From the UHGV virus genome UHGV-2204638: a DNA stretch of 36,601 nucleotides. One strand, given 5' to 3'. Numbering within the stretch: position 1 is the first letter of the stretch; every line of letters begins with the position of its first letter. The position numbers and the translations under genes were made by a program. The notes under the pieces were generated by a model that made no database searches, had not been told where the DNA came from, and worked only from the letters and a program-made list of their open reading frames with translations. Positions 3,308 through 31,137 of this stretch are shown piece after piece. Origin of the DNA: a virus.

Positions 3308-3742
3308 TTAATGCAGATAACATGTAATCGCATTCAACCTGCTTATTTCCAGTAAATGGCTTATCGTCAGGATTACCCCAACAGCAATTACCCTTGGGCA
3401 CCCATGCACTTTCCGTACTCTTCCGTTAACAACGTGAAGTAATCCCCAGCCAGGTGGTAAATCCTCAATTGAAATAATTCCCGGCTCACTAATAAAGAAT
3501 CGCCAGTCGCCCATTCCAAGAGACGGATTTTTACGAAAACGCTTTTTTCTATCTGCCAACAAGTCAGCACGAGAACATTTCGCCTCTATCAGGCATGATG
3601 CTGAATTTCTGAATCCCATAGCATCTGGCTGTTCTCCGGTACTGGTTACAGCTATAAAGCGGTCATGAAAACAAACCTTGAACCCGTTGCGCTTAAGGAA
3701 CTTGTACGCAATCTGACAGAGTTCGCGGTGTGTTAACGCCAT
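3308..3742 (-). CDS. PD-(D/E)XK nuclease-like protein, possibly frameshifted at the 3' end
   Basis: QPDAMGF...CLIEAK matches a PD...(D/E)xK signature. The last ~45 aa look non-protein-like and an alternative frame (3388..3570) is open. Confidence 0.4.
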   Translation of the reverse strand: MALTHRELCQIAYKFLKRNGFKVCFHDRFIAVTSTGEQPDAMGFRNSASCLIEAKCSRADLLADRKKRFRKNPSLGMGDWRFFISEPGIISIEDLPPGWGLLHVVNGRVRKVHGCPRVIAVGVILTISHLLEISRLNAITCYLH

Positions 3743-3743
3743 A

Positions 3744-4136
3744 TCACTCTCCTTTGATGCGAATGCCAGCGGCGCGGATTGCAGCGATGACCTCAGAAAC
3801 TTTGTATGCCATTACCGTTTGGTAATCCTCGTGAAAATCTGTTCGATGAAGCATGCTGCTAAGTTCTGGGAGCGATATTTCCCGCGCTTCCAGTTCTGCA
3901 ATGCGCTTCTCTGCGGCTTCCAGCGCATTTACCAGATCATCAACGATTCCAGCAGATTGGCGTGCGTAATCTGTAATTGCCAGCTCGCATTCAATTTCAG
4001 TTCCGTTTTCGTTTGTGTGGCAAATAGCAAAGTAATCGGAGTCGATTTCGTTATCAGCCAAACGCCTCAGCGTGTCGGCAACCAGCACTCCGTTTTCAAT
4101 CAGCATCTCTGTTGCGCGTTTGTTGATGTTGCTCAT
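3744..4136 (-). CDS. Hypothetical phage early protein
   Basis: 130-aa ORF in a chain of overlapping stop/start codons. Confidence 0.45.
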   Translation of the reverse strand: MSNINKRATEMLIENGVLVADTLRRLADNEIDSDYFAICHTNENGTEIECELAITDYARQSAGIVDDLVNALEAAEKRIAELEAREISLPELSSMLHRTDFHEDYQTVMAYKVSEVIAAIRAAGIRIKGE

Positions 4137-26818: not shown

Positions 26819-26989
26819 ATGTTTGTGAAACCTGTTAAAGGGCGGTCAGTACCTGACCCTGCCCGCGGCGACCTTTTGCCCGCCGAGGGGCGAAATGTTG
26901 ATGAGAACAACTACTGGCTGCGCCGTGAAGCAGCGGGTGATATCCGGCGCGTGAATAAAAAGGTGAACACCGATGACGATAAGCTTTAA
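26819..26989 (+). CDS. Small DUF2635-like protein preceding the sheath
   Basis: 56-aa ORF MFVKPVKGRSVPDPARGDLLPAEG...YWLRR read from sequence; such small genes precede sheath genes in Mu-like tail modules (from memory). Confidence 0.45.
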   Translation: MFVKPVKGRSVPDPARGDLLPAEGRNVDENNYWLRREAAGDIRRVNKKVNTDDDKL

Positions 26990-28469
26990 CACCATTCCGT
27001 CGAATACGCTGGTTCCGCTGTTTTATGCGGAAATGGATAACCAGGCGGCGAATACTGCACAGGACAGCGGGGCATCGTTGCTGATTGGTCACGCCAATAA
27101 CGGTGCAGAGATTGTTGCCAACAGTCTGGTGCTGATGCCGTCGGCAGACTATGCACGCCAGATTTGTGGTGCGGGAAGTCAGCTGGCGCGTATGGTCGAG
27201 GCTTATCGCCAGACCGACCCGTTTGGCGAGCTGTATGTGATTGCCGTTCCGGAAGCCACAGGCGCGGCGGCAACGGTTACGCTGACGGTGACCGGGGCGG
27301 CAACCGAAACCGGCACGGTGAATGTCTATGTTGGACGTACCCGCGTGCAGGCTCCGGTGACCAACGGCGATAACGTCACGACGATTGCCAGCAGTATCCA
27401 GGATGCCATCAATGCCGTTCCGGCCCTGCCGTTTACGGCTTCATCTTCGGCAGGCGTGGTCACACTGACCGCGCGTCATAAGGGGCTTTGCGGGAATGAA
27501 ATTCCTGTCAGCCTCAATTACTACGGCTTCGGTGGGGGCGAAGTGCTGCCAGCGGGCGTACAGATTGCCGTGGCGACGGGGACCGCCGGAACGGGCTCTC
27601 CTGTTCTCACCGGCGCGGTGGCTGCAATGGCGGATGAGCCGTTTGATTATATCGGCCTGCCGTTCAACGACACGGCCTCCGTTAACACGCTGGTGACCGA
27701 GATGAACGATACCAGCGGTCGCTGGAGCTATGCGCGTCAGCTGTATGGTCATGTGTATACGGCAAAGATCGGCACGTTGTCAGAACTGGTGACCGCAGGT
27801 GACCAGTTTAACCAGCAGCACATTACCCTGGCGGGATACGAAAAAGAGACCCAGACGCCTGCCGACGAGCTGGCGGCAAGCCGTACCGCCCGCGCAGCGG
27901 TGTTTATTCGCAACGATCCGGCACGTCCCACGCAGACCGGTGAGCTGGTGGGTATGCTGCCTGCGCCGAAGGGGAAACGGTTCACGATGACCGAACAACA
28001 GACCCTGCTGTCTCATGGCGTGGCAACGGCGTATGTCGAAAGCGGGGTGCTGCGCATTCAGCGTGATGTCACCACGTACAGGAAAAACGCTTACGGTGTT
28101 GCGGATAACAGCTACCTCGACAGCGAGACGCTGCATACCAGCGCGTATGTGCTGCGCAAACTGAAATCCGTCATTACCAGTAAGTACGGGCGTCACAAGC
28201 TTGCCAGCGACGGTACCCGCTTTGGTCCCGGTCAGGCGATTGTCACACCGGCGGTGATCAAAGGGGAACTGCTGGCAACCTACCGTCAGCTTGAGCGTGC
28301 GGGGATCGTGGAAAACTACGAACTGTTTAAGCAGTACCTGGTTGTGGAGCGTGATGCCAGCGATCCGAACCGCCTGAACACGCTGTTCCCGCCTGACTAT
28401 GTTAACCAGTTGCGTGTCTTTGCCGTGGTTAACCAGTTCCGTCTTCAGTATTCAGAGGAGTCTGCATAA
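26973..28469 (+). CDS. Tail sheath protein
   Basis: 498 aa; position and size. Confidence 0.85.
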   Translation: MTISFNTIPSNTLVPLFYAEMDNQAANTAQDSGASLLIGHANNGAEIVANSLVLMPSADYARQICGAGSQLARMVEAYRQTDPFGELYVIAVPEATGAAATVTLTVTGAATETGTVNVYVGRTRVQAPVTNGDNVTTIASSIQDAINAVPALPFTASSSAGVVTLTARHKGLCGNEIPVSLNYYGFGGGEVLPAGVQIAVATGTAGTGSPVLTGAVAAMADEPFDYIGLPFNDTASVNTLVTEMNDTSGRWSYARQLYGHVYTAKIGTLSELVTAGDQFNQQHITLAGYEKETQTPADELAASRTARAAVFIRNDPARPTQTGELVGMLPAPKGKRFTMTEQQTLLSHGVATAYVESGVLRIQRDVTTYRKNAYGVADNSYLDSETLHTSAYVLRKLKSVITSKYGRHKLASDGTRFGPGQAIVTPAVIKGELLATYRQLERAGIVENYELFKQYLVVERDASDPNRLNTLFPPDYVNQLRVFAVVNQFRLQYSEESA

Positions 28470-28825
28470 TGGCCCGTATCGGGGGAACCTGTTATTTCAA
28501 AATTGACGGTCAGCAGCTATCGCTGACCGGCGGCATTGAGGTGCCCATGAACAGGACGGTCAATGATGACATCATCGGCCTGGACGGTTCAGTGGACCGC
28601 AAGGAAACTCACCGTGCACCTTATGTCAAAGGGACCTTCAAGGTGCCGAAGAATTTTCCGGTGAGCAAAATCACCTCGTCTGATGAGATGACCATCACTG
28701 CCGAGCTGGCGAACGGTCAGGTCTATGTATTGTCGTCCGCCTGGCTGCACGGTGAAGCGAACCATAATGCCGAAGAAGGCACGGTTGATCTTGAGTTCCA
28801 CGGTGAAGAAGGGGATTACCAGTGA
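28469..28825 (+). CDS. Tail tube protein
   Basis: 118 aa directly after the sheath. Confidence 0.7.
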   Translation: MARIGGTCYFKIDGQQLSLTGGIEVPMNRTVNDDIIGLDGSVDRKETHRAPYVKGTFKVPKNFPVSKITSSDEMTITAELANGQVYVLSSAWLHGEANHNAEEGTVDLEFHGEEGDYQ

Positions 28826-29145
28826 TTGAGCTTGTACTTAAAAAACCGATCATCGCCCACAAAGAAACACTGCATGTGCTGGAAATACGTGAGCCTACGT
28901 ATGACGAGATTGAGGCGCTGGGGTTCCCTTTCTCTGTTTCGCCTGATGGTGGTATGAAAATGGACAGTCAGGTGGCGCTGAAATATATCCCGCTTCTGGC
29001 CGGGATCCCGCGCTCGTCTGCAGCGCAGATGACGAAGCTGGATATTTTCAAGGCAGGCATGATTGTAATGCGTTTTTTTACCGGCTTGGAGACGGAAGAG
29101 ACCTCCGGAAGCGATTCTACAATGTCGCGTGGTTCTGGAAATTAA
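28822..29145 (+). CDS. Tail assembly chaperone
   Basis: 107 aa between tube and tape measure. Confidence 0.55.
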   Translation: MIELVLKKPIIAHKETLHVLEIREPTYDEIEALGFPFSVSPDGGMKMDSQVALKYIPLLAGIPRSSAAQMTKLDIFKAGMIVMRFFTGLETEETSGSDSTMSRGSGN

Positions 29146-29237
29146 ACCCCCTTGAACTTCGCCGGACGGCTATTTCCCACTTTGCTGATCTGGAGGCAGA
29201 GGCCGTCCGTATAAATGAGGAGATGAAGCATGGCTGA
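29073..29237 (+). other. Candidate programmed -1 frameshift site and extension frame of the tail chaperone
   Basis: T TTT TTT heptamer (29073..29079) in X XXY YYZ register; the -1 frame stays open for 53 codons to a TGA at 29235..29237. Confidence 0.4.
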
Positions 29238-31137
29238 TAATTTTCAGCTGAAAGCCATCATCACCGCCGTTGACAGGCTATCCGGCCCGCTTAAAGGTAT
29301 GCAGCGTCAGCTTAAGGGATTTCAGAAAGAAGTCTCCAGCCTTGCTCTGGGCGCTGCCGGGGCGGGTACTGCAATAATGGGGGCACTGGTACTCCCTGTA
29401 AAATCAGCCATCACCCTTGAATCGAAGATGGCTGATGTCCGCAAAGTGGTGGACGGTCTGGATACGCCTGATGCGTTTAAGGCCATGACGGAGCAGGTGC
29501 GTGACCTGTCAACCGAACTGCCTATGTCGGCGGAAGGTATCGCTGAAATCGTGGCGGCGGGTGGTCAGGCCGGGATTGCACGTGATGAACTGATGCAGTT
29601 TGCCACTGATGCGGTGAAGATGGGCGTGGCCTTTGATACCACGGCTGAAGAGTCCGGGCAGATGATGGCCCAGTGGCGTACTGCGTTTAATATGACGCAG
29701 GATGAAGTGGCCGGGCTGGCTGACAAAATCAACTACCTTGGTAATACCGGCCCGGCGAACGCGAAGAAAATCTCCGATATTGTTACGCGTATTGGTCCTT
29801 TAGGTGGTGTTGCAGGTGTGGCTTCCGGCGAAATCGCGGCAATGGGGGCAACCATTGCCGGGATGGGCGTGGAGTCAGAAATTGCCGCCACAGGGATCAA
29901 GAACTTCATGCTTTCCCTGACCGCGGGAAATTCTGCGACAAAATCGCAGAAACAGGCATTGCGTTTTCTGCGGATCAATCCGAAGAAATTAGCTGCTGAT
30001 ATGCAGAAAGATGCCCGGGGCACCATGCTATCTGTACTGGATGCGATGGCTAAAGTGCCTAAAGAAAAACAGGCAGCTGTGCTGAATGCCCTGTTCGGGA
30101 AAGAGTCTCTGGGCGCGATAGCACCTCTGCTGACTAACCTTGATTTGTTGCGTACCAACTTCAGGCGGGTTGCGGATTCCCAGCAGTATGGCAGTTCGAT
30201 GCAGAAGGAATATGCTTCGAGGGCAGCGACGACGGAAAACCAGCTTTTACTTCTGCAAAATCAACTTGATGCCATTTCTTCCACGCTGGGGGAAACGTTT
30301 CTTCCTGAGGTTAATGATGGTCTTGAAGCGGTAAAACCGCTCCTTGAGGAAGTGAGAACGTTTGTCCGTGAAAACCCGGAGCTCGTTAAGACCATTGCTA
30401 AAATCGGTCTGGCCTTACTGACGGTGGGAGCCGCTGCAGGCTCTTTGTCCAGAATTATGAAAGTTCTCGGCGGTGTGATGAATATGACGCCTGCTAAGGG
30501 GCTGATTGCTCTTCTGGTTGGTGGCGCTTACCTCATTATTGATAACTGGGAAACCGTAGGTCCTGTCATAAAAAAAGTCTGGCACGTGATGGATGAAACG
30601 GCGCAGGCGATGGGGGGATGGGAAACTGTTCTGAAAGCGATTGCCCTGTTTATGGCAACCAAATGGGTTGCTGACGTTACCAAATCCATTACCGCAGTGA
30701 CCAGAGAGATGCGTACGCTGGGGAAGGTATCGGCAGAAACGGGATTGATGGGGAAAGGCCGCGGCTTTATCGGGAAGGCCGGGGTATATGGTTTTCTGGG
30801 AACCCTGATGTATGAGCCGGTTAAAGATACTCTGGAAAGTGTTGTTCCTGAAGATACGGTTAACTGGCTGGATAATAAAGGGCTGTTTCTGGCTTCAGAC
30901 TGGACGCCTTTTTTTGATCGTAAAGAGTACGAGCAATATCAGGCCAGCCTGAGTCAGTACAAACCCAATGTTCCGCTGTTGAATCCATCTTCTTCCATGA
31001 CACAGCACAGCGAGCTGAAAGTCACGTTCGAGAATGCTCCGCCAGGTATGAAGATAATTGATGTACCGGACAAAGCCGATCCCCTGATGAAAATCACGCA
31101 CGATGTGGGGTATTCCCCTTTTCGTTTTCCACGATAA
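29230..31137 (+). CDS. Tail tape measure protein
   Basis: 635 aa, alpha-helical and Ala/Gly-rich, with transmembrane-like segments. Confidence 0.85.
   Translation: MADNFQLKAIITAVDRLSGPLKGMQRQLKGFQKEVSSLALGAAGAGTAIMGALVLPVKSAITLESKMADVRKVVDGLDTPDAFKAMTEQVRDLSTELPMSAEGIAEIVAAGGQAGIARDELMQFATDAVKMGVAFDTTAEESGQMMAQWRTAFNMTQDEVAGLADKINYLGNTGPANAKKISDIVTRIGPLGGVAGVASGEIAAMGATIAGMGVESEIAATGIKNFMLSLTAGNSATKSQKQALRFLRINPKKLAADMQKDARGTMLSVLDAMAKVPKEKQAAVLNALFGKESLGAIAPLLTNLDLLRTNFRRVADSQQYGSSMQKEYASRAATTENQLLLLQNQLDAISSTLGETFLPEVNDGLEAVKPLLEEVRTFVRENPELVKTIAKIGLALLTVGAAAGSLSRIMKVLGGVMNMTPAKGLIALLVGGAYLIIDNWETVGPVIKKVWHVMDETAQAMGGWETVLKAIALFMATKWVADVTKSITAVTREMRTLGKVSAETGLMGKGRGFIGKAGVYGFLGTLMYEPVKDTLESVVPEDTVNWLDNKGLFLASDWTPFFDRKEYEQYQASLSQYKPNVPLLNPSSSMTQHSELKVTFENAPPGMKIIDVPDKADPLMKITHDVGYSPFRFPR

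What the first reader, a model, noticed from the sequence alone, without database searches (positions are those of the whole stretch)
29073..29237. Candidate programmed -1 frameshift in the tail assembly chaperone
A T TTT TTT slippery heptamer lies 22 codons before the chaperone stop, and the -1 frame is open for 53 codons, ending just inside the tape-measure start. A frameshifted chaperone extension upstream of the tape measure is a conserved feature of tailed phages (established knowledge; lambda G/GT, P2 E/E').
Basis: partly seen in the sequence, partly recalled or inferred. Interest (0 to 1): 0.45.

Follow-up and report, generated by a model that had tools for sequence, protein, structure and literature searches.

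The report
Frameshift site in phage tail chaperone
This is a genuine but ordinary example of a well-known phage trick: a run of seven T's lets some ribosomes slip back one base, so one tail-assembly gene makes a short and a long protein. It is the same site phage P2 uses, and the databases have not annotated it here.

Summary
The chaperone ORF 28822-29145 (Pfam PF10109) contains an in-phase T_TTT_TTT at 29073-29079, 22 codons before its stop. The -1 frame then runs 52 sense codons to a TGA at 29235-29237, inside the tape-measure start (ATGGCTGA).

The window is an SfIV-like prophage with a Mu-like contractile tail.

Within the window alone the evidence is modest, because T7 runs are not enriched. 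The comparative evidence is decisive:
- In 124 of 129 related loci the C-terminal part lies in the -1 frame.
- 75 of 77 distinct sequences, from Escherichia to Pseudomonas, Burkholderia and Methylococcales, carry an in-phase T_TTT_TTN at the same protein position.
- The preceding codon always ends in T, whatever amino acid it encodes.
- Substitutions in the extension fall mainly on its own third codon positions (66/22/269).
- That frame has no start codon in the window.
- Fused profiles align colinearly with P2 E+E' (97.6%, E 3.6e-12), whose -1 shift at T_TTT_TTG is annotated in the P2 record and described in the literature.

No downstream stimulatory structure is predicted.

Verdict: an unannotated new member of the known P2 E/E+E' (lambda G/GT-type) -1 frameshift. 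Interest is low.

The parts
28822..29145 (+). Short (zero-frame) tail assembly chaperone, 107 aa, P2 gpE-like
   Evidence: Pfam PF10109 Phage_TAC_7 at 32.1 bits (cut-off 25) and phrog_166 at E 1e-25. Annotated as 'tail protein' or 'phage tail assembly protein' in SfIV and E. coli records.
29073..29079 (+). Slippery heptamer T_TTT_TTT, in X_XXY_YYZ phase (CGT TTT TTT)
   Evidence: Sequence and phase. An in-phase T_TTT_TTN sits at the homologous position in 75 of 77 distinct related sequences and in P2-like phages.
29079..29237 (+). -1 frame extension (E'-like domain), 52 codons plus TGA. The predicted fusion joins 28822..29079 and 29079..29237 to give 138 aa.
   Evidence: Translation. phrog_32181 at E 3e-5. 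Conserved motif A-x-(F/Y)-W-(R/K)-x-N-P ... A-x-R-I. Differences by codon position are 66/22/269 in the non-overlapped part. No ATG/GTG/TTG in this frame from 28947 to 29222.
29146..29229 (+). Apparent 84-nt intergenic gap between the annotated chaperone and the tape-measure gene. It is in fact coding in the -1 frame.
   Evidence: Searches show the gap in public annotations. One search shows the coding-type substitution pattern.
29217..29222 (+). GAGGAG Shine-Dalgarno for the tape-measure gene, embedded in the end of the extension (7 nt before the ATG)
   Evidence: Read from the sequence. Inference.
29230..31137 (+). Tail tape measure protein, 635 aa. Its start overlaps the -1 stop (ATGGCTGA).
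   Evidence: PF10145 at E 6e-43 and phrog_28 at E 1e-142.
28469..28825 (+). Tail tube protein (upstream neighbour)
   Evidence: PF10618 at E 2e-33.
26973..28469 (+). Tail sheath protein (context: contractile, Mu-like tail module)
   Evidence: PF04984, PF17482 and PF17481.

Best explanation
A programmed -1 ribosomal frameshift of the P2 E/E+E' type, which is the functional class of lambda G/GT.

Most ribosomes translating the chaperone gene 28822-29145 finish at the zero-frame stop and make a 107-aa protein.

A minority do something else. With tRNA-Phe in the P and A sites on TTT-TTT (29074-29079), both tRNAs slip back one base onto T-TT/T-TT (29073-29078). Decoding then resumes at TAC (29079-81) and continues for 52 codons to the TGA at 29235-37. 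The product is a 138-aa fusion: the common N-terminal chaperone domain plus an E'-like C-terminal domain.

By analogy with lambda G/GT, the common domain coats the tape measure protein encoded immediately downstream. The extension recruits the tube protein, so that the tube polymerises around the tape measure at a fixed short:long ratio.

Shown here: the site, its phase, its conservation, the protein-coding constraint on the -1 frame, and homology to P2 E+E'.

Inferred: that slippage is ribosomal, how efficient it is, and the assembly role.
For: (1) Exact anatomy of the site.

(2) tblastn with the conceptual fusion finds both halves, as two pieces in different frames, in 28 of 30 phage records at 98% down to 34% identity.

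(3) In 124 of 129 loci the C-terminal part is in the -1 frame relative to the N-terminal part.

(4) 75 of 77 distinct sequences have an in-phase T_TTT_TT(T/C/G) at the same protein position (..FF..). The codon before it is CGT, GGT, AAT, AGT, CCT, GTT or ATT. That is seven different amino acids, always with T at the wobble position. The same holds in P2-like phages (GGT, CTT, ACT).

(5) In relatives, the window where both frames are open shrinks to 39-48 nt centred on the heptamer. This pins down the shift site.

(6) The zero-frame tails after the site vary in length (4-22 codons) and are poorly conserved. The -1 peptide is conserved. Its nucleotide differences fall 66/22/269 on codon positions 1/2/3.

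(7) The -1 frame has no start codon upstream of 29223.

(8) The N-terminal domain is in Pfam PF10109, 'E, or 41 or 14'. Fused profiles align colinearly with P2-like E+E' over 123 columns, at probability 97.6% and E 3.6e-12, with GFF aligned to the P2 GFL shift site.

(9) The P2 record annotates E+E' as a joined CDS with a '-1 translational frameshift' at the T6G. The literature describes it: PMC3091744 cites Christie 2002 and Xu 2004, and so does the review PMC5009743.
Against: - There are no protein or ribosome-profiling data.
- No public record of this phage group annotates the shift.
- The SfIV genome paper never uses the word frameshift.
- No stimulatory downstream structure is predicted (z = 0.19; no consensus pairs).
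- No conserved upstream SD-like element was seen by eye. Efficiency would therefore rest on the heptamer alone. The review reports U_UUU_UUU as much less shift-prone than A_AAA_AAG in E. coli.
- The extension does not reach Pfam PF06528. On its own it aligns to P2 E' only weakly (E 1e-3, probability 20%).
Confidence: 0.88

Rival explanations
1. Transcriptional slippage. RNA polymerase stutters on the T7 run and adds one U to a fraction of mRNAs. Ordinary translation of those mRNAs gives the same FF-Y... fusion.
For: The site is a homopolymer, and an extra U would produce exactly the same protein. Selection for T at the preceding wobble position also lengthens the run, so it fits this model too. 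Genomic T8 and T5 variants show that the run is prone to length changes, at least during replication or sequencing.
Against: Most relatives, and P2 itself, have only six T's (T6C or T6G), always in the X_XXY_YYZ phase. The review describes bacterial transcriptional slippage for runs of 9 A or T. The P2 site is annotated and cited as translational. Mannheimia phage PHL101 has the non-homopolymeric ribosomal shift motif G_GGA_AAG in this region instead.
Confidence: 0.05
2. The -1 ORF is a separate small gene translated from its own start, as annotated in phage vB_EcoM-689R6, and is not a fusion.
For: One record annotates it as an independent hypothetical protein. PHROGs holds a family of such small ORFs (phrog_32181). 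P2-like records often list a separate 'GpE family' ORF.
Against: In this window there is no ATG, GTG or TTG in that frame between 28947 and 29222. The ORF listing finds no ORF of 30 aa or more there. The open -1 frame always starts before the heptamer and overlaps the chaperone ORF.
Confidence: 0.01
3. Mutational frameshift or assembly error. The real gene is a single 138-aa ORF, and the T7 is a length error of a T8 or T5 run. Or the reverse: the site is a decaying relic with no function.
For: In-frame fused versions exist in databases: T5 (P0001, L224, L225), T8 (L019), and an extra G downstream (P0003-P0007, one of them seen on 661 contigs).
Against: The two-frame layout is the rule in 124 of 129 loci across many genera, including isolated viable phages such as SfIV, SfV and phiP27. 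The fused variants arise by different, unrelated indels. Some sit in assemblies where neighbouring genes are also broken. A relic would not keep a 66/22/269 codon-position pattern.
Confidence: 0.03

Closest known systems
Bacteriophage P2 gpE / gpE+E' (tail assembly chaperone pair; -1 frameshift at T_TTT_TTG)
   Same: - Same Pfam family for the common domain (PF10109).
- Fused profiles are homologous over both frames (97.6%, E 3.6e-12).
- Same shift-site position (..G-F-F/L..) and phase, with a T-ending preceding codon.
- Similar extension length (52 vs 57 codons).
- The -1 stop overlaps the tape-measure start by 8 nt in both (ATGGCTGA vs ATGAGTAA).
- Same gene order: tube, chaperone, tape measure.
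- No significant downstream structure is predicted for the P2 site here. A citing paper reports the same for P2.
   Different: - The heptamer ends in T (Phe-Phe) rather than G (Phe-Leu).
- The zero-frame tail after the site is 22 codons here against 7 in P2.
- The extension does not reach the Pfam E' model PF06528.
- The surrounding tail module is Mu-like (Mu N and P homologues), not P2-like.
- Sequence identity to P2 E+E' is only about 15%.
Bacteriophage lambda gpG / gpGT (-1 frameshift at G_GGA_AAG)
   Same: Same logic and position: two products from one start, between the major tail/tube gene and the tape measure. The long form arises by a low-level -1 shift. The roles in tail assembly are described in PMC5009743.
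   Different: No detectable sequence relationship: only PF10109 was hit. The slippery sequence is different. Lambda is a siphovirus tail, whereas this is a contractile tail.
Bacteriophage Mu gp41 (tail assembly chaperone; -2 frameshift)
   Same: The tail module of the window is Mu-like: sheath, tube, DNA-circularisation protein N and hub P homologues. Mu gp41 is named in the title of the same Pfam family.
   Different: Mu is reported to use a -2 shift into the +1 frame. Its sequence has no T run. Here the extension is in the -1 frame, and the +1 frame closes after 25 codons.

Membership tests
P2 E/E+E'-type chaperone pair | Common N-terminal domain belongs to Pfam PF10109 (Phage_TAC_7) | tested here: met
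   32.1 bits against a cut-off of 25, covering residues 5-86. P2 E+E' scores 47.8 bits against the same model.
P2 E/E+E'-type chaperone pair | -1 frame extension belongs to Pfam PF06528 (Phage_P2_GpE, the E' part) | tested here: not met
   No hit even at E <= 10. Profile-profile comparison of the extension alone against P2-like E' is weak (E 1.1e-3, probability 20%). The fused profiles do align colinearly through the extension. The conclusion is distant homology without family-model membership.
P2 E/E+E'-type chaperone pair | [quoted passage not shown] | tested here: met
   CGT TTT TTT at 29071-29079. GFF aligns with P2 GFL in the profile alignment. P2 has GGT TTT TTG.
P2 E/E+E'-type chaperone pair | -1 ORF of about 50-60 codons that ends at or inside the start of the tape-measure gene | tested here: met
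   52 codons, with TGA at 29235-37 overlapping the ATG at 29230. The same layout occurs in 10 other phages.
P2 E/E+E'-type chaperone pair | Both the short and the frameshifted long protein are made, and both are needed for tail assembly | not testable with these tools
   Needs protein detection and genetics.
lambda G/GT-type conserved tail frameshift (functional class of Xu, Hendrix and Duda 2004) | Two overlapping ORFs between the major tail/tube gene and the tape-measure gene, the second reached by a frameshift and lacking its own start | tested here: met
   Gene order. No start codon in the -1 frame. The arrangement is conserved in 124 of 129 loci.
lambda G/GT-type conserved tail frameshift (functional class of Xu, Hendrix and Duda 2004) | Sequence relationship to lambda gpG/gpT | tested here: not met
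   The Pfam scan returned only PF10109. No direct comparison with the lambda sequences was run.
Mu gp41-type (-2 frameshift) | Extension encoded in the +1 frame and reached by a -2 shift | tested here: not met
   The extension is in the -1 frame. The +1 frame has a stop after 25 codons.

The most novel reading that the evidence does not exclude
Natural hard-wired fusions of the two frames may be tolerated alternative states rather than sequencing errors or dead prophages. Examples are the extra G seen in a Shigella flexneri allele on hundreds of contigs, and the T5 or T8 run-length variants. If so, the T run would double as a mutational switch that sets the short:long chaperone ratio, or turns tail production off and on.

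Separately, Mu-like tail modules carrying a P2-type -1 site, while Mu itself uses -2, would show that the recoding mode is exchanged together with the chaperone and tape-measure cassette.
Probability: 0.1. Interest if true: 0.35.

Novelty: new member of a known kind. Interest (0 to 1): 0.15.

Why it matters
The main value is for annotation. The 84-nt 'gap' between the chaperone and the tape-measure gene in SfIV, SfV, phiP27, ST64B-type phages and over a thousand E. coli prophage copies is coding. A 138-aa tail assembly protein is missing from those records.

The comparative set also gives a clean example of selection on a synonymous site. The base before the slippery run is always T, behind seven different amino acids.

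It shows too that a Mu-like tail module can carry the P2-type -1 site rather than Mu's -2 site.

None of this changes what is understood about phage tail assembly.

Tried and rejected
- **Downstream stimulatory structure.** The single-sequence fold of 29073-29160 gives z = 0.19. The 51-nt folds for the window and 7 relatives including P2 give z between -0.9 and +0.6. RNAalifold on 10 homologues finds 0 pairs. Rejected.
- **Upstream SD-like stimulator.** Nothing conserved was seen by eye in the aligned upstream sequences. This was not tested formally.
- **T7 enrichment in the window.** Not significant.
- **Structure prediction of the fused protein.** P0001 with a 22-sequence alignment gave pLDDT 47 and pTM 0.31. 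That is too poor to search with, so no fold search was run.
- **Solved structures by sequence.** No meaningful hit.
- **NCBIfam.** No model hit for the fusion, the extension or P2 E+E'.
- **Viral-contig scan with P2 E+E'.** It gave only near-identical copies. Diverse P2-like loci were therefore taken from the phage collection instead.
- **Literature.** Christie et al. 2002 (PMC135442) is not held. Xu et al. 2004 could not be read. I could not check whether SfV or relatives are in their list of 28 phages. The supplement of PMC10885494 did not list them.

Full report
**Observation.**
The ORF at 28822-29145 (+) starts at a GTG that overlaps the stop of the tail tube gene and encodes 107 aa. The run of seven T's lies at 29073-29079. 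T 29073 is the wobble base of CGT (Arg), followed by the zero-frame codons TTT TTT, so the phase is the classical X_XXY_YYZ. Twenty-one sense codons and the stop follow in the zero frame. Read from 29079, the -1 frame gives 52 sense codons and a TGA at 29235-37, which lies 8 nt inside the next gene (ATGGCTGA, ATG at 29230). Every number in the finding is right.

**What the surroundings are.**
The window is 97-99% identical to Shigella phage SfIV and to Escherichia phage vB_EcoM-720R4 over its structural genes. The same kilobase has matches in 1095 of 5426 complete E. coli genomes, and in 236 of them the match covers at least 80% of it.

The local gene order is as follows:
- sheath, 26973-28469
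- tube, 28469-28825 (PF10618)
- the ORF in question (PF10109, 'Phage tail assembly chaperone proteins, E, or 41 or 14')
- tape measure, 29230-31137 (PF10145)
- a Mu N-like DNA-circularisation/hub protein
- a Mu P-like baseplate hub

This is a Mu-like contractile tail module. None of the records examined annotates a frameshift here. They show an 84-nt gap instead. One phage record calls the -1 ORF a separate hypothetical protein. The SfIV genome paper does not contain the word frameshift.

**Is it more than chance?**
Inside the window the case is only moderate. T7 runs are not enriched (12 against 9.4 expected). Among 35 in-phase XXXYYYZ heptamers in 48 long ORFs, 3 have a -1 ORF that passes the zero-frame stop.

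**The comparative evidence settles it.**
- A tblastn search with the conceptual fusion finds both halves as two pieces in 28 of 30 phage records. Identity runs from 98% down to 34%, in phages of Escherichia, Shigella, Salmonella, Yersinia, Pantoea, Edwardsiella, Paraburkholderia and Pseudomonas.
- I added 80 viral contigs and 37 loci from one-genome-per-species bacterial assemblies. In 124 of the resulting 129 loci the C-terminal part is in the -1 frame relative to the N-terminal part.
- Of 77 distinct sequences, 75 carry an in-phase T_TTT_TT(T/C/G) at the same protein position..FF...
- The codon in front of the run is CGT, GGT, AAT, AGT, CCT, GTT or ATT. That is seven different amino acids, always ending in T. 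This is what re-pairing of the P-site tRNA after a -1 slip requires.
- In several relatives the stretch where both frames are open is only 39-48 nt and is centred on the heptamer. The shift can hardly happen anywhere else.

**The -1 frame is coding.**
The zero-frame tails after the site differ in length (4 to 22 codons) and are poorly conserved. The -1 peptides share a motif, (Y/F)-x-x-A-x-(F/Y)-W-(R/K)-x-N-P ... A-x-R-I.

I compared seven diverged members of the window's clade over the part of the extension that lies beyond the zero-frame stop. Their nucleotide differences fall 66/22/269 on positions 1/2/3 of the -1 codons. The pairs are not independent, but the bias is plain. Part of the conservation at the very end may also serve the tape-measure ribosome-binding site (GAGGAG, 29217-22; inference).

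In the window the -1 frame opens at 28947 and has no ATG, GTG or TTG until 29223. The conserved peptide can therefore only be reached from the chaperone ORF.

**Comparison with known systems.**
The P2 record annotates E (91 aa) and E+E' (142 aa) as a joined CDS with a '-1 translational frameshift'. The sequence there is GGT TTT TTG, and E' ends in ATGAGTAA, overlapping the tape-measure gene T. That is the same layout as here.

A paper on P2-like Burkholderia phages summarises the P2 data, citing Christie 2002 and Xu 2004. It states that no downstream structure is found in P2 (PMC3091744).

P2 E+E' hits PF10109 with its E part and PF06528 with its E' part. The window's protein hits PF10109 only. 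Its extension is not recognised by PF06528, and on its own it aligns only weakly to a profile of P2-like E' peptides (E 1.1e-3). A profile of 22 fused proteins of this clade does align colinearly with a profile of seven P2-like fused proteins. The alignment covers 123 columns spanning both frames, at probability 97.6% and E 3.6e-12, with GFF on top of the P2 GFL.

Other P2-like phages keep T_TTT_TTG behind GGT, CTT or ACT. One has T_TTT_TTC, and Mannheimia PHL101 has G_GGA_AAG in this region instead.

Mu, whose tail genes otherwise resemble those of the window, is reported to use a -2 shift (PMC5009743). It has no T run. Here the +1 frame closes after 25 codons. The recoding site is therefore of the P2 kind in a Mu-like module.

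**Mechanism.**
The best-supported reading is a tandem -1 slip of two tRNA-Phe on T_TTT_TTT, giving ...M-R-F-F-Y-R-L-G.... No downstream structure is predicted:
- z = 0.19 for the window
- z near 0 for seven relatives and P2
- no consensus pairs in ten homologues

The review notes that U_UUU_UUU is much less shift-prone than A_AAA_AAG in E. coli. That fits a low fixed ratio of long to short form.

The roles are inferred from lambda G/GT as described in the review. The common domain binds the tape measure, and the extension recruits the tube protein.

The main rival is transcriptional slippage on the T run, which would give the same protein. It is disfavoured for three reasons. Most relatives and P2 have only six T's in strict phase. 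One relative uses a non-homopolymeric motif. Bacterial polymerase slippage is described for runs of about nine. No computation here can exclude it.

**Variants.**
A few database sequences have the two frames fused in the DNA:
- T5 (P0001; L224 and L225 read gcgTTTTTacc)
- T8 (L019)
- an extra G 27 nt downstream in a Shigella flexneri allele; one such protein is on record from 661 contigs (P0003-P0007)
- a 1-nt deletion in Salmonella phage 118970_sal3, which explains its odd 132-aa annotation

Some of these assemblies also have broken neighbouring genes, so homopolymer errors are likely for part of them. They do not weaken the main conclusion, because the two-frame layout is the rule across genera.

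**Verdict.**
The finding is real and its interpretation is right. It is an unannotated member of a well-known class of recoding sites, homologous to the P2 E/E+E' site described in the literature. It is useful for annotation and unsurprising to a specialist.

Noticed in passing
window ~28850 (tube/chaperone boundary): SfV, SfII, SfI and SKA5 are about 97% identical to the window through the sheath and tube genes, but the match stops at the start of the chaperone gene (query positions 1-451 of 28400-29400). Their chaperone is only about 40% identical at protein level. The chaperone and tape-measure genes seem to be exchanged as one cassette.
   Followed up: partly
L013 (Paraburkholderia phage IPK) 830-900: The conserved Phe-Phe is encoded TTC TTC with no T run. 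The zero and -1 frames overlap by only 9 nt (GGG CGC GTA A) just before the stop. Either a different, stop-adjacent shift site is used, or the unverified record has an error.
   Followed up: no
L020 1480-1490; proteins P0003-P0007: A Shigella flexneri allele of the phiP27-like chaperone has one extra G (CCTCCGGGAAAC) 27 nt after the T7. This fuses the frames into a single 140-142 aa ORF. One such protein is on record from 661 contigs. It would make only a long form.
   Followed up: partly
L224 and L225 850-856; L019 ~1446: Run-length variants of the slippery site also fuse the frames: T5 instead of T7 (gcgTTTTTacc), and T8 in L019. Some carrier assemblies have other fragmented tail genes, which suggests homopolymer sequencing errors.
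   Followed up: partly
L008 (Salmonella phage 118970_sal3) 592-990: The annotated 132-aa 'tail protein' is a chimera caused by a 1-nt deletion (TCTAC-ACACC) downstream of the T7.
   Followed up: yes
L221 (Mannheimia phage PHL101) 582-588: This P2-like phage has G_GGA_AAG (the lambda-type heptamer) near the end of its E gene, in place of T_TTT_TTG. A 52-codon E'-like -1 extension follows.
   Followed up: no
window 31116-31122: An in-phase C_CCT_TTT lies 5 codons before the tape-measure stop. Its -1 frame is open for 33 codons and runs past the stop into the start of the next gene. This is probably chance. No conservation check was done.
   Followed up: no
L006 (vB_EcoM-689R6) 3662-3844: The -1 extension of the SfV-type allele is annotated as an independent 'hypothetical protein'. 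Its annotated start is a GTG upstream of the slippery site. This is an annotation artefact of the unrecognised frameshift.
   Followed up: yes
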